This document shows, in pieces, positions 38,993 to 60,975 of a stretch of DNA of 64,000 bases. The stretch is from a virus. The notes under the pieces were generated by a model that did not search any database, was not told the DNA's origin, and saw only the letters and a program-made list of their open reading frames with translations. The stretch covers positions 1 through 64,000 of IMG/VR virus record IMGVR_UViG_3300046171_000182; one strand, 5' to 3'. Position 1 is the stretch's first letter; the number at the start of each line of letters is the position of its first letter. Both the position numbers and the translations under genes were made by a program.

Positions 38993-39931
38993 ATGTCAAA
39001 TGAATTTTTATGGGTCGAGAAATATCGACCAAAAGTAATTTCTGAAACAGTACTGCCTCCCCGATTAAAAGATGTGTTTCAGAAAATGGTGGATACTGGT
39101 GAATTGCCTAATATGCTTTTCACTGGTACTGCCGGTTTAGGCAAAACAACAGTTGCTAAAGCATTATGCGATGAACTAGGATTAGATTACATTGTAATTA
39201 ATGGTTCAGAAGAAGGCAACATTGATACGCTTCGTGGTAAAATAAAACAATTTGCGTCCTCTGTATCTTTACAGGGTGGCGTTAAAGTCGTTATATTAGA
39301 CGAAGCAGACTACTTAAATCCTCAATCTACTCAACCTGCTCTTCGCGGTTTTATTGAAGAGTTTAGTAATAATTGTAGATTCATTCTCACCTGCAATTTT
39401 AAGAATCGTATTATTGAGCCACTTCATTCTCGGTGTGGCGTTTATGAATTTAATACGACTAAAAAAGAAATGGCAGAGCTCGCCGCTGAGTTCTTTAAAC
39501 GGTTTATAAATATACTAAATCATGAAGGCGTAACGTTCGAGAAAAATGCCGCGGCAGATCTCGTTATGAAATACGCTCCAGATTGGAGGAGAGTATTAAA
39601 TGAAGGGCAAAGGGGTGGATTTAGTGATAGCGGCATTAATGGTAACAATAATAGTAATGGCATTGCTTCCATTAATGATCTCGCCAAGCACTTAAAAGAA
39701 AAAGACTTTAAGAAGATGAGGCATTGGGTCGCTAATAATATGGATGTCGACGCATCATCTATCTTTCGTGGATTATATGATAATATGGCAGAAGTAGTTG
39801 CCAGCAGATCGATACCACAACTCGTTCTTATATTAGCGGACTACCAATATAAACATGCCTTTGTGGCAGACCATGAGTTAAACGTTGTAGCTTGTATGAC
39901 GGAGATAATGGCAAACGTAGAATTTAAGTAA
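38993..39931 (+). CDS. gp44: Clamp loader large subunit gp44
   Basis: LWVEKYRP, GTAGLGKTT, LDEADYL, PLHSRC. Confidence 0.96.
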   Translation: MSNEFLWVEKYRPKVISETVLPPRLKDVFQKMVDTGELPNMLFTGTAGLGKTTVAKALCDELGLDYIVINGSEEGNIDTLRGKIKQFASSVSLQGGVKVVILDEADYLNPQSTQPALRGFIEEFSNNCRFILTCNFKNRIIEPLHSRCGVYEFNTTKKEMAELAAEFFKRFINILNHEGVTFEKNAAADLVMKYAPDWRRVLNEGQRGGFSDSGINGNNNSNGIASINDLAKHLKEKDFKKMRHWVANNMDVDASSIFRGLYDNMAEVVASRSIPQLVLILADYQYKHAFVADHELNVVACMTEIMANVEFK

Positions 39932-49741: not shown

Positions 49742-50086
49742 ATGAAAGAATCACTAAAAGTCCTGCAAGAATGTGCAGAAATTCAAGCAAGAAAATCTAA
49801 CGACTATCAGAACGAAAACTCACGTATTCGTCAAGCTGATTATTATCCACGTGGCGTCATGTCAATTATGGAATTGATTAACACAAAGACTATTCGTCTA
49901 TGGTCTGTACTTGAAGCTATGGAGAATGATCCTAACTATGAGCCTAACTTTGAAGGCGTTGAAGACTCCCTCAAAGATTTAATTAACTATTCTTCGTTTG
50001 CTGTCGCATACGCTCGTGGTAAGATTGACGGTCAAGACCCTAATCGCGATTTCTTAAACAGGACCAGAAAAAATGACAAAGTATGA
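49742..50086 (+). CDS. Nucleotide modification associated domain 1 (DUF1599-like)
   Basis: RKSNDY, K.IRL, VEDSLKDLINY. Confidence 0.75.
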   Translation: MKESLKVLQECAEIQARKSNDYQNENSRIRQADYYPRGVMSIMELINTKTIRLWSVLEAMENDPNYEPNFEGVEDSLKDLINYSSFAVAYARGKIDGQDPNRDFLNRTRKNDKV

Positions 50087-50276
50087 AGAGATAGATTTAT
50101 TAAAAAGAAATATTCATGATTTGCAAAGACAATTGCAGGATGCTTATATTAGAATCAAAGAACTAAATAATGAGATTCCTGATGGAACTGGCCATGGTCC
50201 AGCTATTATAGATGACGGGTGGGCAGACGAAACTGATATTCAAATCATGTCTACTAGTAGAGGACACAACCAATAA
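50073..50276 (+). CDS. Small coiled-coil protein
   Basis: DLQRQLQDAYIRIKEL. Confidence 0.55.
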   Translation: MTKYEEIDLLKRNIHDLQRQLQDAYIRIKELNNEIPDGTGHGPAIIDDGWADETDIQIMSTSRGHNQ

Positions 50277-51058
50277 TGTTAAGAGTTATTGCTGGACCAT
50301 GTCAACACGAATCGCTAGAGCAGTCAATGGAGATTGCCAAGCATTGTAAAGATGTATGCGATAAGTATGATATTGAATACGTCTTTAAAGCTAGTTTTGA
50401 TAAGGCAAATAGAACATCTCTTAATGGTGAACGAGGACTAGGTCTGGTGCCAACAGCATATAGTTTTATAGATATTAAACAAGAGATTCCTGGCTTAAAA
50501 ACATTAACAGATGTTCATAGTGTTGAACAAATCAGAACGATTAGAAATCAGTTTAATTCTTGTATTGATGTATTACAGATACCAGCATTCTTATGTAGAC
50601 AAACTGATATAATTAGAGAAGCTTGTCGTACAGATAAGATAGTTAATATTAAGAAAGGCCAGTTCTTGGCACCTTGGGATGTAGCTGGCATTCTAAGTAA
50701 AACAAAAGATGCTAAAGAAGTCTGGATAACAGAAAGAGGATCGAGTTTTGGTTATAATAATCTTGTTGTTGATTTTAATGGTTTGCAGTACATGCTTGAT
50801 AACTATAGCGTTCCGATTGTATTTGATGCAACACACTCGTGCCAGAAACCTGGTGGAAGCGGTGAAAGTTCAGGTGGCAATCGTGCTTGGGTCCCAGGGC
50901 TTACTCGTGCTGCTTCTGCTATGGGTGTATCTAACTTCTTCTTAGAAGTACATCCAGATCCAGATAACGCACCATCCGATGGACCAAATATGTTAAAACT
51001 AGAAGACTTCGATAGAGTTATAGAAAAAATAGTGGAGTGTAATTATGATCGCGGGTAA
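50276..51058 (+). CDS. kdsA: KDO-8-phosphate synthase
   Basis: IAGPC, FKASFDKANRTS, QIPAFLCRQTD, KKGQF, ERG, DATHS, EVHPDP..A.SDG. Confidence 0.93.
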   Translation: MLRVIAGPCQHESLEQSMEIAKHCKDVCDKYDIEYVFKASFDKANRTSLNGERGLGLVPTAYSFIDIKQEIPGLKTLTDVHSVEQIRTIRNQFNSCIDVLQIPAFLCRQTDIIREACRTDKIVNIKKGQFLAPWDVAGILSKTKDAKEVWITERGSSFGYNNLVVDFNGLQYMLDNYSVPIVFDATHSCQKPGGSGESSGGNRAWVPGLTRAASAMGVSNFFLEVHPDPDNAPSDGPNMLKLEDFDRVIEKIVECNYDRG

Positions 51059-51386
51059 AGTTTGGGGTAATACGGAGCTGATAGAAGCAAACGGCGCTCT
51101 AGAGTTTCATAGAATTGAAATGAATAAAGGCGGTGTTTGTTCTAAGCACCTGCATGAGTTTAAATGGAATGGATTCTATGTTGAGTCTGGTCGTATGCTT
51201 ATTCGCGTATGGCAAAAAGATTATGATTTAGTAGACGAAACAATATTAGACCCAGGTGATTATACTAAAGTTAAACCTGGCGTCTATCATCAATTTGAAT
51301 GTTTAGAATCTGGAGTCGCTTTTGAATTGTATTGGGCAGAATTTAATCATAACGACATTAAGAGAGAAACTGTTGGTCATGCATGA
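51045..51386 (+). CDS. Cupin-domain protein
   Basis: GKVWG, CSKHLH, PGVYHQF, FELYW. Confidence 0.75.
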   Translation: MIAGKVWGNTELIEANGALEFHRIEMNKGGVCSKHLHEFKWNGFYVESGRMLIRVWQKDYDLVDETILDPGDYTKVKPGVYHQFECLESGVAFELYWAEFNHNDIKRETVGHA

Positions 51387-51964
51387 AAGTAAGTGATGCT
51401 GCAACTCACGTAAAATATTATGCTAGTCATCAAATGATGATTACAAAATTGCAAACCTTTAATGATATAACATATACTGCCGGAGCAGAACAAAGTTTAA
51501 GGATATTGCAATTAAATATGGAAAGGCTTAATTGGTTCCTTGGAGATGTAAGAATACCTAAATTTAATTATACTGTCGACTTTGATAAAAATCAAATAAC
51601 TACTTATTCTGAATACATGTTTGGTACTCAAATACACCCAAGAATTGCATATGAAAATAAAGATGTTATTTATGATAGTATGGTAAACAGCGATCAAACA
51701 TGGTTTTATCAAGAAGGAATAAATACGAAACTAGTCGATTGGCCTCTGCACAAACGTTCTATGTTAATGAGAACTAAAAAAAGTAAAAATTATGGTTTTA
51801 AAGATTACTCATTAGAAAATTTTATTATAAGAGGAACTAAACCATTAGGAAAAGATGAACCACCTTGGAATATTGCATATGTAGATTTAGAAGCTTTTTG
51901 TGAATGTACAAATGATGATCGCAAAAAAGCATTTAAATTTTATGAAGGGGCTATAATTTTATGA
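51383..51964 (+). CDS. Protein-kinase-like fold protein (putative small-molecule kinase)
   Basis: RIP, YSEY, FKDYSLENFI (DxxxxN), YVDLE. Confidence 0.45.
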   Translation: MKVSDAATHVKYYASHQMMITKLQTFNDITYTAGAEQSLRILQLNMERLNWFLGDVRIPKFNYTVDFDKNQITTYSEYMFGTQIHPRIAYENKDVIYDSMVNSDQTWFYQEGINTKLVDWPLHKRSMLMRTKKSKNYGFKDYSLENFIIRGTKPLGKDEPPWNIAYVDLEAFCECTNDDRKKAFKFYEGAIIL

Positions 51965-51976
51965 AGGGGGCTATAA
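51938..51976 (+). repeat. Tandem duplication TTTTATGAAGGGG(G)CTATAA x2
   Basis: Directly visible; includes the RBS of the next gene. Confidence 0.85.
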
Positions 51977-51977
51977 C

Positions 51978-52400
51978 ATGAAAGTAGGATTTACAGCTTC
52001 AACTTTTGATTTACTTCATGCAGGACATGTGGCAATGTTGCGTGAGGCAAAATCAGTTTGTGATTATTTAATTTGTGGTTTGCAGGTAGATCCTACATTG
52101 GATAGACCTAGAAAGAATCGACCTGTTCAATCAATTGTAGAACGACAAGCACAATTAGCCGCAATAAAATATGTCGATGAAGTAATTATTTATTGTACAG
52201 AAGAAGAATTATGTGATATAATAAACATGTATCCAATTGACGTAAGGATATTGGGTGAAGAGTATAGAGACAAAGATTTTACTGGTAAGGATGAATGTCG
52301 CAAACGTGGCATTCAACTTTACTTTAATAAACGAGACCATAGGTTCTCGACGTCTGATTTAAGGAAAAGAGTACAGTATGCAAATGACAGCAGTCCGTGA
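51978..52400 (+). CDS. TagD-like cytidylyltransferase
   Basis: STFDLLHAGH, ER..QL.AIKYVDE, RDHRFSTS.LR. Confidence 0.88.
   Translation: MKVGFTASTFDLLHAGHVAMLREAKSVCDYLICGLQVDPTLDRPRKNRPVQSIVERQAQLAAIKYVDEVIIYCTEEELCDIINMYPIDVRILGEEYRDKDFTGKDECRKRGIQLYFNKRDHRFSTSDLRKRVQYANDSSP
52194..52222 (+). promoter_or_regulatory. Gene-internal promoter TGTACA-N17-TATAAT upstream of the gp42-like gene
   Basis: Exact motif and spacing. Confidence 0.65.
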
Positions 52401-53061
52401 TATTCGTCAATATTTTATTGATGAACTAAAAGACGAAGCTTTTACAATTGATAAGACCGGCGCTAAGACAATAGAAATGCTTGGCGCATCTTTCATTGCT
52501 GATGAGGCAGCCATATTTGGAACAGTTAGTTATGATTATGTTCAAGAAGAATTAGACTGGTATGATAGCCAGTCTACAAACATTAACGACATTCGTGATA
52601 ATCCACCAAAAGCCTGGGAGTATGCTGCAAATACTCATGGTGAAATTAATTCTAATTACGGACATCTTATTTTTTCAGACAAATATTATAACCAATATGG
52701 CTGCGTGCTGGATGAATTACTAGAAAATCCTGACGGTCGACGTGCTTCCATGATTTACAATAGACCGTCTATTTGGATGGAGTATAATGAAAATGGAAAA
52801 TCGGATTTTATTTGTACTAACAGCGTCACTTACTATATTCGTGATAGTATTCTACATTCTGTAGTTCAGATGCGTTCTAATGATGTGGTGTTTGGATATA
52901 AGAATGATTACGCGTGGCAACGTGAGGTAATGAAAAGATTAGTCAGAGATTATAATGCTCTAAGTACTTACGATACAGGTAATATAATTGAAGAAGGTCA
53001 CATTACTTGGCAAGTACAAAACTTGCACGTCTATGAAAAGCACTTTAACCTTGTCAAGTAA
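52378..53061 (+). CDS. gp42: dCMP hydroxymethylase (T4 gp42-type, thymidylate synthase fold)
   Basis: INSNYG, SDFICTN, MRSNDVVFGYKNDYAWQ with the Asp that specifies dCMP, LHVYEKHF. Confidence 0.85.
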   Translation: MQMTAVRDIRQYFIDELKDEAFTIDKTGAKTIEMLGASFIADEAAIFGTVSYDYVQEELDWYDSQSTNINDIRDNPPKAWEYAANTHGEINSNYGHLIFSDKYYNQYGCVLDELLENPDGRRASMIYNRPSIWMEYNENGKSDFICTNSVTYYIRDSILHSVVQMRSNDVVFGYKNDYAWQREVMKRLVRDYNALSTYDTGNIIEEGHITWQVQNLHVYEKHFNLVK

Positions 53062-53506
53062 GTGGGATCACCGCTATTTAGAGTTAGCGCGCGCGGTTGG
53101 TACCTGGTCTAAGGATCCTTCCACAAGAATAGGAGCTATTGCTGTTGGAATTAAAGGACAGGTATTGGCTCAGGGATATAACGGATTGCCTAGAGGAGTT
53201 TCTGATTCTGATGAAAGATACCAGGATCGAGAGACTAAATACAAATACATTGTTCATGCAGAACAAAATTTAATTTATAATGCAACATGGAATGGTGTCT
53301 CCTTAGATCAATCTACTTTATATGTGACTGGGCTTCCTGTTTGTTCTGAGTGTGCTAAAGGCGTTATTCAAGTTGGAATAAAGAGAGTAGTTATGCCAGC
53401 TAGTGAAGACATAAGGGGATGGGGTGATAAGGCACGTTGGAACGATTCGTGGGAATTGTCTGCTTCTATGTTTAAGGAAGCCAACGTGTTATACGAGTTT
53501 ATATAA
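53051..53506 (+). CDS. cd: dCMP deaminase
   Basis: WSKDPST, GYNG.PRG, HAEQN, PVCSECAK; start codon uncertain. Confidence 0.9.
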   Translation: MSSKWDHRYLELARAVGTWSKDPSTRIGAIAVGIKGQVLAQGYNGLPRGVSDSDERYQDRETKYKYIVHAEQNLIYNATWNGVSLDQSTLYVTGLPVCSECAKGVIQVGIKRVVMPASEDIRGWGDKARWNDSWELSASMFKEANVLYEFI

Positions 53507-54084
53507 TGGATATGGGATTCAACTCGAGTGTGGAGTTTGTCAAGCTACCAGTAGGATTTAACTTTTGGACTTTTGATAATATACTGTCAGGAGATTTGCC
53601 AAATCAGTTACTGGAAGACAGCAATCAATTCAACTTTTTTAAATTAGATCAGCGCAGGACATCAAGACCTGACCGTATCTATATGCATGAGTATAATATC
53701 GATAGTTTTAAAACTATCGTGGATTTATTAACCAGTAATGGCACCAAAAAGTATTTTAGTGATATTACAGGTATTGATTACACTCGACAACAGGCTAGAA
53801 TTGAACTATGCAAAGACGCAACTGGAAGTTGGTTAGAGCAACATTGCGATGATCCAGCAAAAACTATGACTTGCCAGATATATCTGAGCAACGCCCCTTC
53901 AAGCACAAAAATTGGAACCTTTGGAAGCAAAGCAAAATTTAATTGTGGTTGGGTCTTTTCCAATACTGGGACTGAACCGCATGGATTACCTCCATTGACA
54001 TTTGATAGAACCAGTATTATCTTAAATTATGTAAGTGAAAACTGGCGTGATAGAGAAGTTTTAATATGAGTTTATATAATGGAT
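53495..54084 (+). repeat. 17-bp direct repeat GAGTTTATATAATGGAT (53495-53511 and 54068-54084) flanking the oxygenase gene
   Basis: Exact match visible; extends to 21 bp with one mismatch. Confidence 0.9.
53506..54069 (+). CDS. 2OG-Fe(II) oxygenase
   Basis: WLEQHCD (HxD), QIYL, PHG, RTSIILNY. Confidence 0.8.
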   Translation: MDMGFNSSVEFVKLPVGFNFWTFDNILSGDLPNQLLEDSNQFNFFKLDQRRTSRPDRIYMHEYNIDSFKTIVDLLTSNGTKKYFSDITGIDYTRQQARIELCKDATGSWLEQHCDDPAKTMTCQIYLSNAPSSTKIGTFGSKAKFNCGWVFSNTGTEPHGLPPLTFDRTSIILNYVSENWRDREVLI

Positions 54085-54174
54085 GATGAAGTATTATTGC
54101 TACTAGCTTTGATGACAGTTATCTTTGGCGGTACGTTAATTATTAATTGGATATTTTGGGGAATAGCCGGATGA
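54079..54174 (+). CDS. 31-aa membrane peptide, not in ORF track
   Basis: MDDEVLLLLALMTVIFGGTLIINWIFWGIAG; ATGA overlap with the next gene. Confidence 0.5.
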   Translation: MDDEVLLLLALMTVIFGGTLIINWIFWGIAG

Positions 54175-55127
54175 ACGTAATTACAAATCCTATATCAAAT
54201 ATTCCGAAGAATGAGAAGTCGCACGTTCATGGTTGGTCGCAGTTGTGGCGTGATCAACTTGGTGCCTTTATTGATCACAAATGTACTCCACGAATAACAA
54301 AAGCAGATGTTGTTTATATAGATCATGGTGCTAACTTTGGCGGTAGTTTAAATTTATTTGGCGGAGCTAATAAAGAAGTTTATGATAGAATCAATCTTGT
54401 AATGTCATGCGAAAACATTGTCTCGTTAGATTGGGATATGCCTGATTATGGGGCAATGTTAAAGAAAAGACTTTCAGCTGAGACAACCTATAAAGATATT
54501 ACAGAAAAGTGGTGTGATTCTATTTCTAAACGAATTAAAAGTATTACGTCTCTTAAGCAGAAAGATTTAAAAACAGATGGTGTTATTTTTGGAGACTCAC
54601 ATACTATCGCTTTTAGTGATGCAGGGGATCGCGTGTATAGGACTGACGGTAAGACTCTTTTTGGTAGTATACGTAAGGGACTTCGACAAGACATACAAGA
54701 ACCATTGGGCCGACTTACCATATCTCTTGGCTCTATTGACATTAGGCATCACATTCTGCGTCACCCTGGCTTTTCTCTTAAATATAACATCAAAGAATAT
54801 GTAAGAGAAGGTAATCAGATGGCTGACGATGTATGGTTTGCTGCTCCGGTTCCTGTAGAGTTTGAAGGAAGACGTATACCTAAATCAGGATTCTACAAGA
54901 AGACTCCATTCTATGGCTCATGGAAAGAGCGTTGGGATCTTACAAACGAATTTATTGAAATGCTTTACGAAGAATCTAAAGGTAAAGTTGTTATGCCGCC
55001 AAAAGAATGGTATACAATGGATCCTGAAAAATACGCAAATACTTATATGGAACACGGTTCTAGTTTTCATATAGCGCCACCATATTATAGACGCAACGAT
55101 TGGGGAGTATCACCTCTTGGCACATAA
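54171..55127 (+). CDS. Two-domain protein: N-terminal region resembling the T4 beta-glucosyltransferase acceptor domain plus C-terminal SGNH-like domain
   Basis: SLNLFGG and SLDWDMP resemble BGT SINFFGG and YLFTDIR (from memory); IFGDSH, GSID, SSFH match SGNH blocks. Confidence 0.5.
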   Translation: MNVITNPISNIPKNEKSHVHGWSQLWRDQLGAFIDHKCTPRITKADVVYIDHGANFGGSLNLFGGANKEVYDRINLVMSCENIVSLDWDMPDYGAMLKKRLSAETTYKDITEKWCDSISKRIKSITSLKQKDLKTDGVIFGDSHTIAFSDAGDRVYRTDGKTLFGSIRKGLRQDIQEPLGRLTISLGSIDIRHHILRHPGFSLKYNIKEYVREGNQMADDVWFAAPVPVEFEGRRIPKSGFYKKTPFYGSWKERWDLTNEFIEMLYEESKGKVVMPPKEWYTMDPEKYANTYMEHGSSFHIAPPYYRRNDWGVSPLGT

Positions 55128-56001
55128 CAATCATGTCATAGACGGAATCAATAAAGATATTAATCCATTTTATGGAGATCCAAAAGAGTATTATTTAGAA
55201 CTAGCAAAAGATTGGGAGGATCCATATGGAATACCTAATATTACTGAGCATAGCGGGATTCGTGTTGTTCGCGACGATTCTCTTGTTGGTAGTAAGGTTA
55301 GGGGCGGCGATTGCCTCATTAGTAGTTTGGGCTCTCACATTGACACTATCGTTTATGTTCAACCTCGCACTGGTCTTGCCGGTGTTAGTATACTTGACGT
55401 CGCCAAACGACATGGAAAAGATGTCATGCTCTTCATGCCCTCAAGTAAACGCATCAGCGATCACCAAGCCTGCTGTATTGAACGGGGAGCACGTACTAGT
55501 TTTCATAGAATAGCAGCTATGCCTAATTTAAATCTAATTGCAAAGAAATGGGCAGATGAAAGAAAGAATGCTTTCTTTGTACCGTTAGGCTTAAAACATG
55601 AAATGGTAACAGCAGGCATTGTAAAGGCTGCTTCTAAGATAAGAGAACCTGAAGAAGTATACACTGCCACGTCCACGGGCGTGCTCACACGGGGGCTGCA
55701 GATTGCTTGGCCTAATGCCAAGTTTACTTCCGTCTGCGTGTCTCGTAATATGAAAGCTGGTGAATTAGGTATTGCAGAAGCCGTATCAGAGCCATTGGCG
55801 TTTACGGCTTCAGAGAAAAAAGACAATCTTCCGCCATTCCCGACTATAGATACCTACGATGGTAAGGTATGGAAATATATTCCAAAGAATACAGGACGTG
55901 ATATTTTATTCTGGAACGTAGGCAAAGAACCGATATTGCAAAATTCAGGTTTACCGGATACCATAGATTCATATAGAGATTGGGAAAAGAATGTGGCTTA
56001 A
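55117..56001 (+). CDS. Fold-type II PLP-dependent enzyme
   Basis: VVRDD..VGSKVR (PLP Lys), STGVLTRGL, YDGKVW, LFWNVG. Confidence 0.8.
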   Translation: MAHNNHVIDGINKDINPFYGDPKEYYLELAKDWEDPYGIPNITEHSGIRVVRDDSLVGSKVRGGDCLISSLGSHIDTIVYVQPRTGLAGVSILDVAKRHGKDVMLFMPSSKRISDHQACCIERGARTSFHRIAAMPNLNLIAKKWADERKNAFFVPLGLKHEMVTAGIVKAASKIREPEEVYTATSTGVLTRGLQIAWPNAKFTSVCVSRNMKAGELGIAEAVSEPLAFTASEKKDNLPPFPTIDTYDGKVWKYIPKNTGRDILFWNVGKEPILQNSGLPDTIDSYRDWEKNVA

Positions 56002-57007
56002 CGAAGAAGCAATTGATGTTCTCGTAAATTATTATTATCCGAAGGCCGGATGGTTGCAAGACAATGTAAACTGGGGACCTTTAGATTATGAAGGTCCTGA
56101 AGCAAATGAAATTGTTAATGATCCGCTTCTGCAAAAGATTGACATCTATGATTGTAAAACAAGAAACGCTGCAGGCTTCTCAAACGTATTACAAGATCTG
56201 AGGTTCGGATCTAAAACTCCTAAATGGAGATGGCAGAAAGAAGATAGACGTAAGATCTCAGCATCTAATGATAATATTAGTTGGTCAATTGAAACGTGGC
56301 TATACACATTTCTCTGTCATCGAATTACTGGGTCAGGTGCTTCATTTGAAAACGATCATGGTTATCGTAATAATATAATTCAGCATTGGGGTAAGCACAG
56401 AGACATTAAAGATATGGCAGAGGATTTGGTAGAGACTAAAGCCTCTGGAAAACCAATGTTTACATCTATCGGCAATCAACCTCCGGCTCCTAAGAAAGGA
56501 GTTAGTAATGTTGACTTTATGGTAAATGAATTGCCAGAAGTTATCAATAGATTTACAGATTTTCTTCTCTTAAAAAGAAGAGGCCACAAAGAAATTGTAG
56601 ATCATCTAAATGAACATAATAAAAAAGCAGGTCATCGTAAATTTAATTTTCAGTATGCTGCTTTCTCTATGGATTGCTCTGACTATTTTCCTGAACACGC
56701 TGATGTGGATTCTCATACATATTTAGGAAACAACGCAGTACGATGTATGAAAAAATTATCTAAAGGTTGGAAAGATGACGACTTTATGGATCTACTAAGA
56801 GAAAAAACTGGCGGTAAACCAAAAGACCTCGAAGATGTTATGTGTGATTTTGTTCGGTTTGGACAGAATTATGTGCCACGAGGTAATGGAACATTCGATC
56901 ATATTCCTTCAACATTAGCTAATGCATCTGGATGGGAATCTGGATGGGAACAAAGACAAGGCCATCCGCCTATAAAAGGTTTACAATTAGATGAATTTAT
57001 GGTATAA
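55991..57007 (+). CDS. Amino acid:DNA transferase-like protein (aGPT-pyrophosphorylase / HhH glycosylase-like family)
   Basis: HRITGS, MFTS, FQYAAF.MD, GNNAVRCM, LEDVMCDFVRF resemble the F..YQ..D / GPGA / E..LCE..K motifs; adjacent PLP enzyme. Confidence 0.6.
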   Translation: MWLNEEAIDVLVNYYYPKAGWLQDNVNWGPLDYEGPEANEIVNDPLLQKIDIYDCKTRNAAGFSNVLQDLRFGSKTPKWRWQKEDRRKISASNDNISWSIETWLYTFLCHRITGSGASFENDHGYRNNIIQHWGKHRDIKDMAEDLVETKASGKPMFTSIGNQPPAPKKGVSNVDFMVNELPEVINRFTDFLLLKRRGHKEIVDHLNEHNKKAGHRKFNFQYAAFSMDCSDYFPEHADVDSHTYLGNNAVRCMKKLSKGWKDDDFMDLLREKTGGKPKDLEDVMCDFVRFGQNYVPRGNGTFDHIPSTLANASGWESGWEQRQGHPPIKGLQLDEFMV

Positions 57008-57013: not shown

Positions 57014-57865
57014 ATGTTAAAAATTACAATTATAGGCCACGGTTTTGTTGGTAAAGCAATCGACTACGCATTTCAAGATGATGTAGAAAAACAAATTATA
57101 GATCCTAAGTATGACGTTCATTTACACGATGTAAGATTATCTTCTGATGTAACGTTTGTTTGCGTTCCAACGCCAATGCATAAAGATGGCCAATGCGATG
57201 TAAGTATTCTTCGAGATGTTTTACATAAAATTGCTCAACGAAGAAGTGGACTCATAGTTGTCAAATCTACAGTACCGCCTGATCAAATAGAAAATTTATT
57301 TCGTGGTTCTGCTAAACATAGAATGGTTTATAATCCAGAATTCTTGACAGAAAAAAATGCAAATGAAGATATTATAAATCCGTTCGTACATATTTTTGGT
57401 GGCGAGAACGAGGCTACTAAAAAGCTGGAAAGTTTTTATAAAGAATATAGTATATGTAAGCCATGTCCAATATCACATATGTCAGCAACAGATGCTAGCT
57501 TTGTAAAGTATGGAATCAATACTTTCCTAGCAACTAAGCTAACATTCTTTAATGAACTTTATGATACAATAAAAGACTTTGGAGGTAATTATGGTCGTAT
57601 CGCAAACGCAATTGGTACTGATCCAAGAATTGGGCACTCCCATACTCGTGTCCCTGGTTTTGACGGCAAGCGTGGTTTTGGCGGTGCTTGTTTTCCAAAA
57701 GATGTTTCCGCCTTCGTAAACTTTACAACTCATACTCCTTTACTAGAATATGTTATGAATCGTAACAATCAATATCGATCCGAGTATGAAAAAGACGAAA
57801 GAGAAATAGCACAGAACATAGAGTATAATATGACTGGTGAAATAGCACACGTGAATGAACGATGA
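57014..57865 (+). CDS. UDP-glucose/GDP-mannose dehydrogenase family (short form)
   Basis: IIGHGFVG, CVPTP, KSTVPP, NPEFL, KY..NTFLA.K, GFGGACFPKD. Confidence 0.9.
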   Translation: MLKITIIGHGFVGKAIDYAFQDDVEKQIIDPKYDVHLHDVRLSSDVTFVCVPTPMHKDGQCDVSILRDVLHKIAQRRSGLIVVKSTVPPDQIENLFRGSAKHRMVYNPEFLTEKNANEDIINPFVHIFGGENEATKKLESFYKEYSICKPCPISHMSATDASFVKYGINTFLATKLTFFNELYDTIKDFGGNYGRIANAIGTDPRIGHSHTRVPGFDGKRGFGGACFPKDVSAFVNFTTHTPLLEYVMNRNNQYRSEYEKDEREIAQNIEYNMTGEIAHVNER

Positions 57866-58794
57866 AAATATTCATAACAGGAATATCAGGGTTTATCGGA
57901 TTCCATTTAGCTAGAGAGCTTAAAGCTTACGGCCATGATATCTTGGGTTGTGATAATTACAACGGCATGTATAATCCATCTCTAAAAATATCTCGATACA
58001 GGATTCTAGAGATGTCAGAGATTCCTGTTAAAAATGCTGATATATGCTCGTTGACTCAATCAGAGGTTGAAGACTGCGATGTTATTGTACACTTAGCGGC
58101 GTGGGCTGGTGTTAGACATTCATTGGAAATGCAAAATGTTTATACAAAAAATAATATAATTGGTACACAAAACATTATAGATATTGCTGAGACGCTAAAC
58201 ATTCCTGTGGTTTATGCTTCTTCATCAAGTGTGTACGCTGGTCAAAATCCACCATTCATGGAAGATATGAATTTTACACATCATCTAAATCCTTATGCTT
58301 GGAGTAAATATGTTAATGAATGTCAATTCAAACACAGTAATGTACCTTCGTCAATCGGCTTTAGATTTTTTACAGTGTATGGTCCTTATGGACGGCCTGA
58401 CATGGCACTTCATGGATTTACGAACAAGATTATAAAAGATGAACCAATAGAAGTTTTTGGTCACGGTGATATGTCACGTGATTTTACATATGTACAAGAC
58501 ATCGTAAATGGTGTACAATTGTTAATAGATAAAGTTTCTAAAATAGATGATCATCAAATCTATAATATTGGTAGTGGCGAATCAGTTCCGCTTATGAGTT
58601 TTGTAAGACTCATAGAAGAAAATCTAGATCGCAAAGCAAAGATTAATTATGTTGATATACATCCAGCGGATATTCGACATACTTTAGCTGATATAACAGA
58701 AATAAAAAGATTAGGCTATCGGCCGATGACTTCTATAGAAACCGGTATTCGCAGCTTTATCAGTTGGTATAAAGATTATTATAAAAAAAATTAG
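57862..58794 (+). CDS. NAD-dependent nucleotide-sugar epimerase (UDP-glucuronate 4-epimerase-like)
   Basis: TGISGFIG, HLAAWAGVRHS, ASSSSVY, YAWSK, RFFTVYGPYGRPDMA. Confidence 0.9.
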   Translation: MKIFITGISGFIGFHLARELKAYGHDILGCDNYNGMYNPSLKISRYRILEMSEIPVKNADICSLTQSEVEDCDVIVHLAAWAGVRHSLEMQNVYTKNNIIGTQNIIDIAETLNIPVVYASSSSVYAGQNPPFMEDMNFTHHLNPYAWSKYVNECQFKHSNVPSSIGFRFFTVYGPYGRPDMALHGFTNKIIKDEPIEVFGHGDMSRDFTYVQDIVNGVQLLIDKVSKIDDHQIYNIGSGESVPLMSFVRLIEENLDRKAKINYVDIHPADIRHTLADITEIKRLGYRPMTSIETGIRSFISWYKDYYKKN

Positions 58795-59850: not shown

Positions 59851-60152
59851 TAGATGTAAATAAACTTTCTGAGGGTATTGACTATAAGTTAATACCTGCT
59901 CCGGATAACGAACAAGCTTGGAACATAAGGGTCTTAACTGGTCCTTATATTGAGACAGTTGTACAGTTTGGCGCCATTTCTATTAATGGTCCAGAAGAAG
60001 CAATTAATTTTAATTTTACTATTATTGAAAGTCCTGATGATTTATTAACGGTTGAAGATAAGCACTTTCAAGAGTTTTGTGGATTAGTCTTACATGATGT
60101 CATTGAAATGGCTATAAGTAAAGACGAATTAATCATGAAAGATAAAAAATGA
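59847..60152 (+). CDS. Hypothetical protein in the gp40 position
   Basis: Between uvsX and gp41, as for T4 gp40. Confidence 0.5.
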   Translation: MIDVNKLSEGIDYKLIPAPDNEQAWNIRVLTGPYIETVVQFGAISINGPEEAINFNFTIIESPDDLLTVEDKHFQEFCGLVLHDVIEMAISKDELIMKDKK

Positions 60153-60571
60153 GAATATTAATTATGGGTTTGCCTGGATCTGGTAAAACTCATTTAGCTG
60201 TAAGATTACAGGGCCTTTTAAAAAATTGTGCATGGTACAATGCTGATGCTATTCGTAAGATGGCTGACGATTGGGACTTTACCGAATCAGGTAGACATAG
60301 ACAAGCAGAACGAATGAATACACTAGCCAACTTTGAAGGTGTTCGAGGTCGTACAGTCATATGTGACTTTGTATGTCCAACAATTGAAACTAGAAAATTG
60401 TTTGATCATGATATTATGATTTGGATGAATACTATAGAGCAAGGCAGATTTAAAGACACAAATAAGCTGTTTCAAAATCCTGATAATGCTACATATACGG
60501 TTAAGGGATTTCAGTCAGACGAAGAAATACAAAATTTTGCAATACAATTAGGGAGTGCATATGGCATTTGA
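60149..60571 (+). CDS. Adenylylsulfate-kinase-like P-loop kinase
   Basis: MGLPGSGKT, NADAIR, DWDFT..GR.RQ, FVCP. Confidence 0.8.
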   Translation: MRILIMGLPGSGKTHLAVRLQGLLKNCAWYNADAIRKMADDWDFTESGRHRQAERMNTLANFEGVRGRTVICDFVCPTIETRKLFDHDIMIWMNTIEQGRFKDTNKLFQNPDNATYTVKGFQSDEEIQNFAIQLGSAYGI

Positions 60572-60975
60572 TTGGAAAAAACCAACGGCGCAAATGCTGG
60601 GGCGATGGCAACCATGGCATAAAGGCCATACCACATTATTCAAGAAAGCATTAGAACAAACTGGCCAAGTTGCTATTATGGTTCGTGATGTTGGTGGAAT
60701 TATTGGTCAAGATGCTGGCGGTGGTCGTACCGCAAAGCAAGATGATAACCCATTTGATTTTAATTTTGTTTCTGCACAAATTATTCTTAATTTGCAAAAT
60801 GAAGGATTTACAATAAACGATGAGTATGTTATAATGGAAGGTACCAAACATTGTTGACATTAGTTATGGTCGTGGTGTTGGGTATACATTTACAGAGCAC
60901 GATCTTGGAGAAGAGATTCATAAGATTAGTGCTACCAATATCCGTAAAAACATGCGAGAAAGTGGAATGCTTTGA
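60561..60975 (+). CDS. HxGH nucleotidyltransferase; apparent extra G at 60840-60841
   Basis: GRWQPWHKGH, DNPF; continues in a shifted frame as VPNIVDISYGRGVGY...ISATNIR. Confidence 0.75.

What the first reader, a model, noticed from the sequence alone, without database searches (positions are those of the whole stretch)
54171..55127. Apparent chimera of a beta-glucosyltransferase hmC-DNA-binding domain and an SGNH acyl-enzyme domain
Seen: the N-half has VITNPISN...DVVYID...SLNLFGG...NIVSLDWDMP and the C-half has IFGDSH...GSIDIRHH...SSFHI. From my recollection of T4 BGT (AIINMGNN...DRLIVVNSSINFFGG...KIYYLFTDIR), the N-half matches the acceptor domain including the base-flipping NFFGG loop and catalytic Asp. 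The UDP-glucose domain is replaced by SGNH motifs. Inference: a DNA hmC O-acyltransferase that makes an ester leaving group in place of the kinase step, or an esterase/acylase acting on the final base. I know of no characterised enzyme of this kind.
Basis: inference. Interest (0 to 1): 0.8.

Follow-up and report, generated by a model that had tools for sequence, protein, structure and literature searches.

The report
BGT-like/SGNH hybrid enzyme for hydroxymethylcytosine DNA
This phage gene joins the DNA-facing half of T4's DNA-glucosylating enzyme to an esterase/acyltransferase-type catalytic half, and its fixed gene partners suggest that it helps turn hydroxymethylcytosine in phage DNA into a decorated base that has not been described.

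Summary
ORF 54171-55127 (+, 318 aa) contains every quoted motif.

- **C-half:** an AlphaFold2 model (pLDDT 95.9) has residues about 133-313 in an SGNH/GDSL fold. All 50 VIA rows shown are of that type, best Z 11.7. G141, S143, H144, D190 and H300 are invariant in 91 relatives.
- **N-half:** residues 1-134 have T4 beta-glucosyltransferase as best structural match among 48,161 chains (1c3j, Z 6.0, weak alone). A profile-profile comparison with the BGT family gives 93.6% probability (E 2e-7). It pairs N61/G64/G65 with N70/G73/G74, and D87 with D100. The UDP-glucose half of BGT is absent.
- **Context:** the gene lies between a T4-gp42-like hydroxymethylase and uvsX, which is T4's b-gt slot. Of 34 related viral loci with 3 kb or more on both sides, a 338-aa partner gene is present in 34 and a PLP enzyme in 28. 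The partner is fused to this protein in 719-795-aa proteins, including those of Aeromonas phages.

The acyl-transfer chemistry itself is inferred and untested. My six literature searches found no description of this family. This scan's earlier notes report the same family on other genomes.

The parts
54171..55127 (+). Whole gene: 318-aa BGT-N-like/SGNH-fold hybrid protein (phrog_13881)
   Evidence: ORF. phrog_13881 E 6.6e-91. No Pfam family. AF2 model pLDDT 95.9, pTM 0.92.
54171..54563 (+). N-domain (aa 1-131), homologous to the DNA/acceptor domain of T4 beta-glucosyltransferase
   Evidence: hhalign A1 vs BGT family A6: 93.6%, E 2e-7, target 1-102 to T4 1-118. VIA rank 1 is 1c3j_A, Z 6.0. PF09198 matches below threshold in 2 of 91 members.
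54345..54365 (+). SLNLFGG loop (aa 59-65), counterpart of the BGT SINFFGG loop
   Evidence: N61 in 90/91, G64 in 72/91, G65 in 86/91. Aligned to BGT N70/G73/G74, which are invariant in 36 BGT relatives.
54429..54431 (+). Asp87, aligned to BGT Asp100
   Evidence: Both hhalign alignments pair D87 with D100. D in 60/91 and E in 10/91. At least 90% in the closer 48-sequence set.
54219..54224 (+). Ser17-His18, nearly invariant pair in the N-domain, role unknown
   Evidence: S in 85/91, H in 89/91.
54567..55124 (+). C-domain (aa 133-318), SGNH/GDSL-type fold
   Evidence: VIA: all 50 rows shown are SGNH/GDSL-type or SGNH-like. Best is 3p94_A, Z 11.7, rmsd 3.4 A, 160 residues, model 127-310. Foldseek top hits are GDSL/SGNH esterases, 3 at E<=1e-3.
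54591..54602 (+). GDSH (aa 141-144): block I with the putative nucleophile Ser143
   Evidence: G, S and H in 91/91, D in 90/91. Follows strand 137-141 in the model. hhalign against E. coli TesA aligns only this block (E 0.033).
54729..54752 (+). GSIDIRHH (aa 187-194): block III-like stretch with invariant D190 and R192
   Evidence: G187 in 88/91; position 188 is N in 45 and S in 44; D190 and R192 in 91/91; H194 in 90/91.
55068..55070 (+). His300, putative block V histidine
   Evidence: H in 91/91. There is no Asp three residues before it (S/Q/G/K). E294 in 90/91.
52378..53061 (+). T4 gp42-type dCMP hydroxymethylase homologue
   Evidence: 52% identical to T4 gp42, with the same MRSNDVVFG..ND stretch. 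Pfam Thymidylat_synt 4.7e-14. Present in 31 of 34 well-flanked loci.
53033..53506 (+). dCMP deaminase
   Evidence: PF00383 4.1e-18. Present in 31 of 34 loci.
55117..56001 (+). PLP-dependent enzyme; its start overlaps the end of the hybrid gene by 11 nt
   Evidence: phrog_7093 3.8e-34. PALP 0.009, below cut-off. BLASTP to M6 gp52 gives E 5e-6 over the C-terminal 46 residues. Present in 28 of 34 loci.
55991..57007 (+). 338-aa obligate partner; a possible distant relative of the HMUDK_hel/ADDT helical families (lead only)
   Evidence: Present in 34 of 34 well-flanked loci. Fused C-terminally to the hybrid protein in 719-795-aa proteins: hhalign 100%, E 3.9e-65, 307 columns. 13% of its Atlas cluster carries PF18723. 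No Pfam hit of its own.

Best explanation
The gene encodes a virus-specific, two-domain enzyme that acts on 5-hydroxymethylcytosine (hmC) in phage DNA.

**Shown at the level of homology and fold.** The N-domain descends from the acceptor (DNA and flipped-base) domain of T4-type beta-glucosyltransferase. It keeps the N-x-x-G-G loop and, in most members, the Asp that aligns with BGT Asp100. The sugar-nucleotide domain has been replaced by an SGNH-fold domain with an invariant GDSH serine and a C-terminal invariant histidine.

**Shown from context.** It works as one unit with a 338-aa partner. That partner is always adjacent and is fused to it in some phages. A PLP enzyme related to the DNA-amino-acid decarboxylase gp52 of phage M6 is usually present too. 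The module sits downstream of a T4-gp42-type hydroxymethylase.

**Inferred.** The N-domain presents the hmC hydroxymethyl group. Ser143/His300 carry an acyl (acetyl or aminoacyl) group as a covalent intermediate and pass it to that hydroxyl. The resulting ester is then either the leaving group for substitution by the partner enzyme, in place of the ATP-dependent 5-HMUDK step of thymidine hypermodification, or the first decoration that the PLP enzyme trims.

**My odds.** Two-domain architecture and a role in hmC-DNA hypermodification: about 0.8. Acyl transfer to the hmC hydroxyl specifically: about 0.4.
For: **Architecture**
- AF2 model pLDDT 95.9.
- The C-half matches SGNH/GDSL enzymes, including acyltransferases PatB 7tjb, OatA 6vjp and 8zbc, at Z 9.5-11.7. 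Foldseek agrees.
- G141, S143, H144, D190, R192, R234, R254 and H300 are invariant in 91 sequences.
- The N-domain model (pLDDT 93.6) has T4 BGT as rank 1 of 48,161 chains and T4 AGT as rank 8.
- hhalign of family against family gives 93.6%, E 2e-7 and 60%, E 8.4e-5.
- Among 24,736 Pfam models, the families hit most often by the 91 members are Lipase_GDSL (5), SGNH (5) and T4-Gluco-transf (2), all below cut-off.

**Context**
- Gene order is gp43 polymerase ... gp42-like ... this gene ... uvsX. T4 has 43, 42, b-gt, segA, uvsX.
- In 34 loci with at least 3 kb on both sides: partner 34/34, hydroxymethylase 31/34, deaminase 31/34, PLP 28/34.
- Natural fusions of this protein with the partner exist. 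A 981-aa protein joins an FkbM methyltransferase, HMUDK_hel (E 4.5e-11) and this domain.
- Aeromonas phage 44RR2.8t carries the 795-aa fusion and a gp42-like gene at 47% identity.
- The PLP enzyme resembles M6 gp52. That protein is shown to be a PLP decarboxylase acting on DNA-linked amino acids (passages of PMC8989533 read).
- The three genes overlap by 11 nt each.
- No homologue of the M6 5-hmdU DNA kinase and no HMUDK_hel match was found in the 135-kb record.
Against: - No activity, donor or product is known. Nothing here distinguishes transferase from hydrolase.
- The SGNH signature is incomplete. There is no Asp three residues before His300. The block III Asn is one position off and present in only 45 of 91 members.
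- No Pfam SGNH or GDSL model reaches its cut-off.
- The Ser-His distance in the model could not be measured.
- The N-domain structural match is weak on its own. Z is 6.0 against 5.2 for the next, unrelated chain, and Foldseek found nothing at E<=1e-3.
- D87 is Asp in only 60 of 91 members.
- No gene for an acyl donor or carrier turned up among the conserved neighbours.
- The partner's kinship with amino-acid:DNA transferases is only a lead: an Atlas share of 13%, but no Pfam hit in 37 members, no PDB sequence hit and no hhalign signal to M6 gp51.
- The record is 77% complete, so a kinase could lie in the missing part. A small P-loop ORF lies at 60149-60571.
Confidence: 0.45

Rival explanations
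1. It is a hydrolase rather than a transferase. The SGNH domain removes an ester-linked group from a modified cytosine in DNA. This could be a trimming, proofreading or unmasking step after the partner enzyme has attached a group, or release of a covalent intermediate.
For: Most solved relatives in the fold lists are esterases: sialate, acetyl-xylan and peptidoglycan O-acetylesterases. The Ser and His are conserved. No acyl-donor gene lies among the conserved neighbours.
Against: No enzyme that would first make an ester is evident in the core module. Aeromonas phages have only the fusion protein and lack the PLP enzyme, so the hybrid and its partner must suffice for some product. Retaining the BGT acceptor-domain residues fits group transfer to the hydroxyl at least as well.
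Confidence: 0.2
2. The SGNH-like domain does non-acyl chemistry or only binds. For example, it could hold a phosphorylated or nucleotide-linked donor, or the DNA backbone, through its invariant Arg/His cluster. The catalysis of base substitution would then lie in the 338-aa partner.
For: R192, R234 and R254 are invariant, and H194 and R197 nearly so. The SGNH blocks III and V are atypical. An SGNH-like fold without esterase activity exists among the matches: the OSK domain 5a4a, Z 10.2. Its lack of activity is recalled, not tested here. Sugar-nucleotide genes flank the module in this window.
Against: G-D-S-H and His300 are invariant in 91 of 91 members, which argues for catalysis. Sugar-nucleotide genes accompany the gene in only 4 to 11 of 34 loci. 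No SGNH-fold glycosyl- or phosphotransferase appeared in the fold lists.
Confidence: 0.15
3. The protein does not act on DNA. It would be a carbohydrate or lipid O-acyl esterase/transferase working with the neighbouring sugar-nucleotide genes on host envelope polysaccharide, and the BGT likeness of the N-domain would be a generic alpha/beta resemblance.
For: Phage SGNH domains are common in tail spikes and fibres (rows). kdsA, cytidylyltransferase, UDP-glucose dehydrogenase and epimerase genes lie nearby. N-domain Z is only 6.0, with TIR and flavodoxin-like chains close behind.
Against: The profile-profile match to BGT at E 2e-7 covers the conserved loop and Asp100. The gene sits in the replication block, in T4's b-gt slot. 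It is obligately linked and fused to the partner, and fused to HMUDK_hel and a methyltransferase. It is linked to the hydroxymethylase in 31 of 34 loci, against 4 to 11 of 34 for the sugar genes.
Confidence: 0.05

Closest known systems
T4 DNA beta-glucosyltransferase (BGT; Pfam PF09198; PDB 1c3j)
   Same: The N-terminal acceptor domain is shared: profile-profile 93.6%, E 2e-7, and best structural match. So are the N-x-x-G-G loop and the Asp aligned to D100. The genome position between gene 42 and uvsX matches. hmC DNA is the presumed substrate.
   Different: The whole UDP-glucose-binding domain is absent. That domain holds R191, R269 and E272, which are invariant in 36 BGT relatives. An SGNH-fold domain takes its place. 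PF09198 does not reach its cut-off. It is therefore not a glycosyltransferase of this family.
SGNH/GDSL hydrolases and acyltransferases (e.g. 3p94, 1yzf, sialate O-acetylesterase 6njc, PatB 7tjb, OatA C-domain 6vjp)
   Same: The fold matches (Z 9.5-11.7 over 134-160 residues). GDS with Ser sits after the first strand, and there is an invariant C-terminal His.
   Different: It has an N-terminal BGT-type domain. His follows the Ser (GDSH). There is no DxxH Asp, and the block III Asn is shifted or absent. It carries an invariant Arg cluster. It is known from viruses only (Atlas clusters 99-100% viral). The presumed substrate is a DNA base, which no SGNH enzyme found by my searches uses.
5-hmdU DNA kinase (5-HMUDK), AADT and PLP decarboxylase pathways of phages M6, ViI and PaMx11 (PMC8989533)
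   Same: A hydroxymethylpyrimidine made by a thymidylate-synthase homologue is modified in DNA after replication. The PLP enzyme is related to M6 gp52. The partner and fusion proteins show faint HMUDK_hel/ADDT signals.
   Different: The base is cytosine (gp42-type enzyme). No P-loop 5-HMUDK was found, and the hybrid enzyme occupies the place of an activating step. The partner is not detectably an AADT by Pfam, PDB sequence or hhalign.
O-acetyl activation of hydroxyl groups before substitution (homoserine or serine O-acetyltransferases followed by PLP enzymes; recalled analogy)
   Same: The logic of the proposed mechanism is the same: an ester acts as the leaving group instead of a phosphate, via an acyl-enzyme.
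   Different: The folds and substrates are unrelated. This is an analogy from memory only and was not tested here.

Membership tests
T4 beta-glucosyltransferase family (PF09198) | N-terminal acceptor/DNA domain with the N70-x-x-G73-G74 loop and Asp100 | tested here: met
   hhalign A1 vs A6: 93.6%, E 2e-7, 100 columns. N61/G64/G65 pair with N70/G73/G74, and D87 with D100. 1c3j_A is rank 1, Z 6.0. The catalytic role of D100 is recalled from the literature, not read here.
T4 beta-glucosyltransferase family (PF09198) | C-terminal UDP-glucose-binding Rossmann domain (R191, R195, R269, E272) | tested here: not met
   The alignment to the BGT family ends at T4 residue 118. Residues 133-313 match SGNH folds instead.
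T4 beta-glucosyltransferase family (PF09198) | Scores above the Pfam gathering cut-off | tested here: not met
   No Pfam hit for the window protein even at E<=10. No PF09198 match in the whole record at E<=10. 2 of 91 relatives give hits below cut-off, best E 0.024.
SGNH/GDSL hydrolase superfamily | Three-layer alpha/beta/alpha SGNH fold | tested here: met
   All 50 VIA rows shown are of this type, Z 8.2-11.7. Foldseek top hits agree.
SGNH/GDSL hydrolase superfamily | Block I G-D-S with nucleophilic Ser after strand 1 | tested here: met
   G141, S143 in 91/91, D142 in 90/91, directly after strand 137-141. Aligned to the GDS of E. coli TesA (weak).
SGNH/GDSL hydrolase superfamily | Block II Gly and block III G-x-N-D Asn (oxyanion hole) | tested here: inconclusive
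   G160 in 82/91 after strand 2. G187 in 88/91, followed by N (45) or S (44), then I, then D190 (91/91). The Asn is therefore one position off and not conserved. No residue-level structural alignment was available.
SGNH/GDSL hydrolase superfamily | Block V D-x-x-H | tested here: not met
   H300 is in 91/91, but the residue three before it is S/Q/G/K. The nearest conserved acid is E294, in 90/91.
SGNH/GDSL hydrolase superfamily | Ser-His within catalytic distance | not testable with these tools
   Model coordinates are not exposed.
Thymidine-type hypermodification pathway (5-HMUDK + AADT + PLP) | P-loop nucleobase kinase with HMUDK_hel domain | tested here: inconclusive
   No PF18723 match and no M6 gp54 homologue in the 135-kb record, which is 77% complete. 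A small AAA_33-like ORF lies at 60149-60571 (E 2.7e-5, below cut-off). It is present in only 6 of 80 loci.
Thymidine-type hypermodification pathway (5-HMUDK + AADT + PLP) | Amino-acid:DNA transferase (PF18724 / aGPT-Pplase2) | tested here: inconclusive
   Partner gene 55991-57007 has no Pfam hit and no signal to M6 gp51. Atlas look-alike clusters carry HMUDK_hel in 10-36% of members and ADDT in 12%.
Thymidine-type hypermodification pathway (5-HMUDK + AADT + PLP) | PLP enzyme of the M6 gp52 / ViI gp226 kind | tested here: inconclusive
   BLASTP to M6 gp52 gives E 5e-6, but over only 46 C-terminal residues. phrog_7093 is 3.8e-34. Pfam PALP is below cut-off.

The most novel reading that the evidence does not exclude
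This is the first enzyme that esterifies a nucleobase in DNA. It would load an acyl or aminoacyl group on Ser143 and transfer it to the hydroxymethyl group of hmC, held by a recycled glucosyltransferase acceptor domain. The ester, rather than a phosphate made by a kinase, would then be displaced or rearranged by the fused or adjacent partner enzyme. The result would be an ATP-kinase-free route to an undescribed amino-acid-derived cytosine in abundant marine T4-like phages and in cultured Aeromonas phages.
Probability: 0.3. Interest if true: 0.9.

Novelty: new variant of a known kind. Interest (0 to 1): 0.72.

Why it matters
Post-replicative hypermodification of hydroxymethylpyrimidines in phage DNA is a known kind of system. 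The characterised routes use glycosyltransferases on hmC, or a kinase plus an amino-acid:DNA transferase on hmU.

This gene would add a new enzyme architecture: a glucosyltransferase acceptor domain joined to an SGNH catalytic domain. It would probably also add a new chemistry on cytosine.

The family is large: 384 representatives at 50% identity and more than 599 IMG/VR stretches. It is known from viruses only, and it also occurs in long-cultured Aeromonas phages (44RR2.8t, 31, 25). The long-standing question of what T4-like phages without glucosyltransferases do with their hmC therefore becomes testable at the bench. Such bases affect restriction, CRISPR targeting and sequencing chemistry, and enzymes that derivatise hmC in DNA are useful tools.

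Tried and rejected
**Sequence-only searches of the window protein found nothing.**
- Pfam at E<=0.1 and E<=10, whole protein and by halves.
- PDB sequences by phmmer and by family profile gave only chance rows, E 0.5-1.2.
- Pairwise BLASTP to T4 b-gt gave E 0.44. A profile against the single T4 sequence gave only 40%, E 3e-4. A BGT family alignment was needed.
- PF09198 against the whole record gave no match.

**Fold searches.**
- Whole-model searches did not list BGT, because the SGNH half fills the lists.
- Foldseek on the N-domain alone gave no match at E<=1e-3. BGT was not among the rows shown, which were flavodoxin, TIR and receiver domains.

**The 338-aa partner.**
- BLASTP and hhalign to the single fusion proteins P0203 and P0211 were negative. 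Aligning five fusion proteins first gave the clear answer.
- Pfam per member found no relevant family in any of 37 members; only four unrelated chance matches, one member each, E 0.065-0.087.
- PDB sequences gave nothing.
- None of the 120 listed homologues of 1091 carried a precomputed Pfam domain.
- hhalign to M6 gp51 and gp55 was negative.
- tblastn against phages gave no match.
- PF18723 gave no match in the record. PF18724 gave one hit below cut-off, at 39449-39796 in another gene.

**Test for a complementary distribution with kinases.** I fetched loci of a 336-aa family that sits between the partner-like gene and this gene in some contigs. 76 of 80 loci have a partner-like gene, but only 21 of 80 have this gene. 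In two loci without it, the neighbours were an HhH-GPD-like protein and proteins without Pfam families, not a kinase. This neither supports nor refutes the idea that the hybrid replaces a kinase.

**Other attempts.**
- hhalign to E. coli TesA aligned only block I.
- Complex prediction of this protein with the partner (alignments A1 and A3) gave no verdict, score 0.00. It counts neither way.

**Literature.** Searches found no paper on this family.
- I read the outline and sections 25 and 28 of PMC13326640.
- I read passages only of PMC6024577, PMC8989533, PMC8056088 and PMC8256090. 'SGNH' occurs 0 times in PMC8989533 and PMC8256090.
- All other papers were seen as search listings only.
- Supplements were not opened. 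The supplementary contig lists of PMC8989533 and PMC13326640 might include this module.

**Readings considered and rejected.**
- A whole-length divergent GT-B glycosyltransferase was my first guess. The C-half fold rules it out.
- A 5-hydroxycytosine synthase pathway is unlikely. The TS homologue keeps the Asp of RSND, as T4 gp42 does, whereas PMC13326640 section 28 reports Asn at that position.
Full report
**What is there.** The window is part of a 135-kb viral record (77% complete) with T4-like gene content. It carries a family-B DNA polymerase, UvsX, a dCMP deaminase and a thymidylate-synthase homologue. Relatives begin at the same MNVITNP start, and a GGGGA lies 9 nt upstream of the ATG.

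**How common it is.** The protein has no Pfam family. It belongs to phrog_13881, function unknown, E 6.6e-91.
- A word-indexed search found 698 clusters at E<=1e-3 among 1245 candidates.
- An exhaustive search found 384 representatives at 50% identity, 98 of them at E<=1e-30.
- Atlas look-alike clusters are 99-100% viral, the largest with 1311 members.
- In cultured phages, tblastn found it in 43 records: 38 Aeromonas, 3 Tenacibaculum and 2 Stenotrophomonas.
- Matches nearly always span residues 2-316, so the two halves are an old unit and not a recent accident.

**C-half.** An AlphaFold2 model built on 91 diverse relatives is confident (pLDDT 95.9, pTM 0.92).
- Foldseek against the PDB puts GDSL/SGNH esterases on top (7bxb E 2.3e-4; three hits at E<=1e-3).
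- The Foldseek-independent VIA search of 48,161 chains gives 53 chains at Z>=8. All 50 rows shown are SGNH/GDSL-type or SGNH-like. The best is 3p94_A: Z 11.7, rmsd 3.4 A, 160 residues, model 127-310. The rows include acyltransferases PatB, OatA-C and 8zbc.
- G141, S143, H144, D190, R192, R234, R254 and H300 are invariant in 91 sequences.
- GDSH follows the first strand of the domain, and the other blocks sit after strands 2 and 3 and near the C-terminus, as in SGNH enzymes.
- The signature is atypical. The Asn of GxND is one position off and present in 45 of 91 members. No Asp lies three residues before His300.
- hhalign against E. coli TesA aligns only the GDS block.
- I could not measure the Ser-His distance, because coordinates are not exposed.

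**N-half.** Folded alone, residues 1-134 give pLDDT 93.6.
- Foldseek found nothing at E<=1e-3.
- VIA ranked T4 beta-glucosyltransferase first of 48,161 chains: 1c3j_A, Z 6.0, rmsd 3.4 A, 103 residues, chain 2-164. T4 alpha-glucosyltransferase ranked eighth (Z 4.6). Only two chains reached Z>=5.
- That Z is within the range of common alpha/beta arrangements, so I sought independent sequence evidence.
- I collected 42 BGT relatives and aligned 36 of them. The profile of the target family against the BGT family profile gives 93.6% probability, E 2e-7, over 100 columns: target 1-102 to T4 1-118. The closer 48-sequence N-domain set gives 60%, E 8.4e-5.
- Both alignments pair N61/G64/G65 with BGT N70/G73/G74, and D87 with D100. 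These four BGT residues are invariant in the BGT set.
- In the target family, N61 is in 90/91, G65 in 86/91, and D87 is D in 60 and E in 10 of 91.
- Scanning all 91 members against Pfam, the families hit most often were Lipase_GDSL (5), SGNH (5) and T4-Gluco-transf (2). All were below cut-off, but they are exactly the two families at issue.
- The alignment stops before BGT's UDP-glucose domain. None of that domain's invariant residues (R191, R269, E272) has a counterpart.

**Context.** The thymidylate-synthase homologue at 52378-53061 is 52% identical to T4 gp42 and shares its MRSNDVVFG..ND active-site stretch. It keeps the Asp that 5-hydroxycytosine synthases are reported to replace by Asn (PMC13326640, section 28). 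The phage therefore most likely makes hmC.

The order polymerase ... gp42-like ... this gene ... uvsX mirrors T4's 43, 42, b-gt, segA, uvsX.

Across 80 related IMG/VR loci, 34 have at least 3 kb on both sides of the gene. In those 34:
- the 338-aa downstream gene is present in 34;
- the hydroxymethylase in 31;
- the deaminase in 31;
- the PLP enzyme in 28;
- the sugar-nucleotide genes that flank the module in this window in only 4 to 11.

The three core genes overlap by 11 nt each.

Five proteins of 719-795 aa, including the type found in Aeromonas phages (44RR2.8t ORF233c; phage 31 ORF233c), are fusions of this protein with the 338-aa partner: hhalign 100%, E 3.9e-65, 307 columns. Phage 44RR2.8t also has a gp42-like gene (47% identity) but no PLP homologue. 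Another 981-aa protein joins an FkbM methyltransferase, an HMUDK_hel domain (E 4.5e-11) and this domain.

The PLP enzyme matches phrog_7093. Its C-terminal motif matches M6 gp52 (E 5e-6), a proven PLP decarboxylase of amino acids attached to DNA (PMC8989533, passages).

The partner's own family is unresolved. Atlas clusters like it carry HMUDK_hel in 10-36% of members and ADDT in 12%. Pfam, PDB sequence and hhalign to M6 gp51 are all negative.

**How it probably works.** Homology and fold show a BGT-type hmC-DNA acceptor domain joined to an SGNH catalytic domain. Context shows an obligate partnership with the 338-aa protein, and usually with a gp52-like PLP enzyme, in hmC-making phages.

The rest is inferred. 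Ser143/His300 would form an acyl-enzyme and transfer the group to the hmC hydroxyl presented by the N-domain. That would give either an ester leaving group, in place of the 5-HMUDK phosphate, or a first decoration.

No M6-type kinase and no HMUDK_hel match was found in the record. However, the record is incomplete, and a small P-loop ORF lies at 60149-60571. That ORF accompanies the gene in only 6 of 80 loci. No acyl-donor gene is conserved nearby. A hydrolase role, a non-acyl role and a non-DNA role remain as rivals, with falling odds.

**Novelty and prior notes.** My six literature searches and the passages I read found no description of this family or of an SGNH enzyme acting on a DNA base. 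Supplements were not seen. Earlier notes of this scan report the same family on other genomes and reach similar readings. I read the look-alike notes after my main tests. I treat them as agreement between AI readers, not as independent evidence.

**Verdict.** The domain-level interpretation is supported and the enzymatic activity is unproven. This is a new variant of phage DNA hypermodification machinery, with a new enzyme architecture that can be tested in cultured Aeromonas phages.

Noticed in passing
window 54079-54174 (+): A 31-codon ORF encodes a hydrophobic peptide. Its TGA stop overlaps the ATG of the hybrid gene (ATGA), which suggests translational coupling. I read it by eye. Conservation was not checked.
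   Followed up: no
window 53506-54069 (+): This 187-aa ORF lies between the deaminase and the hybrid gene. It has no Pfam or PHROG family and no homologue in any of the 80 related loci (0 of 80). It looks like an insertion specific to this phage.
   Followed up: partly
window 50276-52400 and 57014-58794: Sugar-nucleotide genes flank the module: KdsA/DAHP-synthase family, cupin, cytidylyltransferase, UDP-glucose dehydrogenase and NAD epimerase. They are variable companions, present in 4 to 11 of 34 well-flanked loci. Their target, DNA or envelope, is unknown.
   Followed up: partly
window 60149-60857 (+): A 140-aa P-loop kinase-like ORF (AAA_33 below cut-off, E 2.7e-5) is followed by a 100-aa ORF with an HxGH-like WHKGH motif, just after uvsX. 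Homologues are found in 6 and 3 of 80 loci respectively.
   Followed up: partly
L084-L163 (e.g. L123:3155-6999, L113:4012-6984): A 336-aa family of unknown function pairs with a 380-390-aa relative of the 338-aa partner in 76 of 80 loci. Only 21 of 80 carry the hybrid gene. In two loci examined, an HhH-GPD glycosylase-like gene lies upstream. This may be a separate DNA-base module.
   Followed up: partly
L001 (Aeromonas phage 44RR2.8t) 6402-10382: The 795-aa fusion gene ORF233c sits next to ORF234c, which is annotated as similar to sodium:solute (sodium/glucose) symporters. It is far from the phage's gp42-like gene.
   Followed up: no
phage records PP438422.1, KY006853.1, PV416405.1: The only cultured-phage matches to the window's PLP enzyme (31-33% identity, 78% coverage) lie under genes annotated as DNA modification methylases, in Microcystis and Erythrobacter phages.
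   Followed up: no
proteins P0211, P0121, P0126: Other fusions of the hybrid domain exist. P0211 has an FkbM methyltransferase plus HMUDK_hel plus this domain (981 aa). P0121 has a Tudor-like PTM/DIR17 match (E 2.2e-5, below cut-off) before it. P0126 has a 220-aa N-terminal extension of unknown family.
   Followed up: partly
window 49742-50086 and related loci: A 114-aa ORF gives a weak DUF1599 match ('nucleotide modification associated domain 1', E 0.032) and recurs in 33 of 80 loci. Other loci carry MazG/PRA-PH-like genes (35 loci) and dATP/dGTP diphosphohydrolase-N genes (16 loci) upstream.
   Followed up: partly
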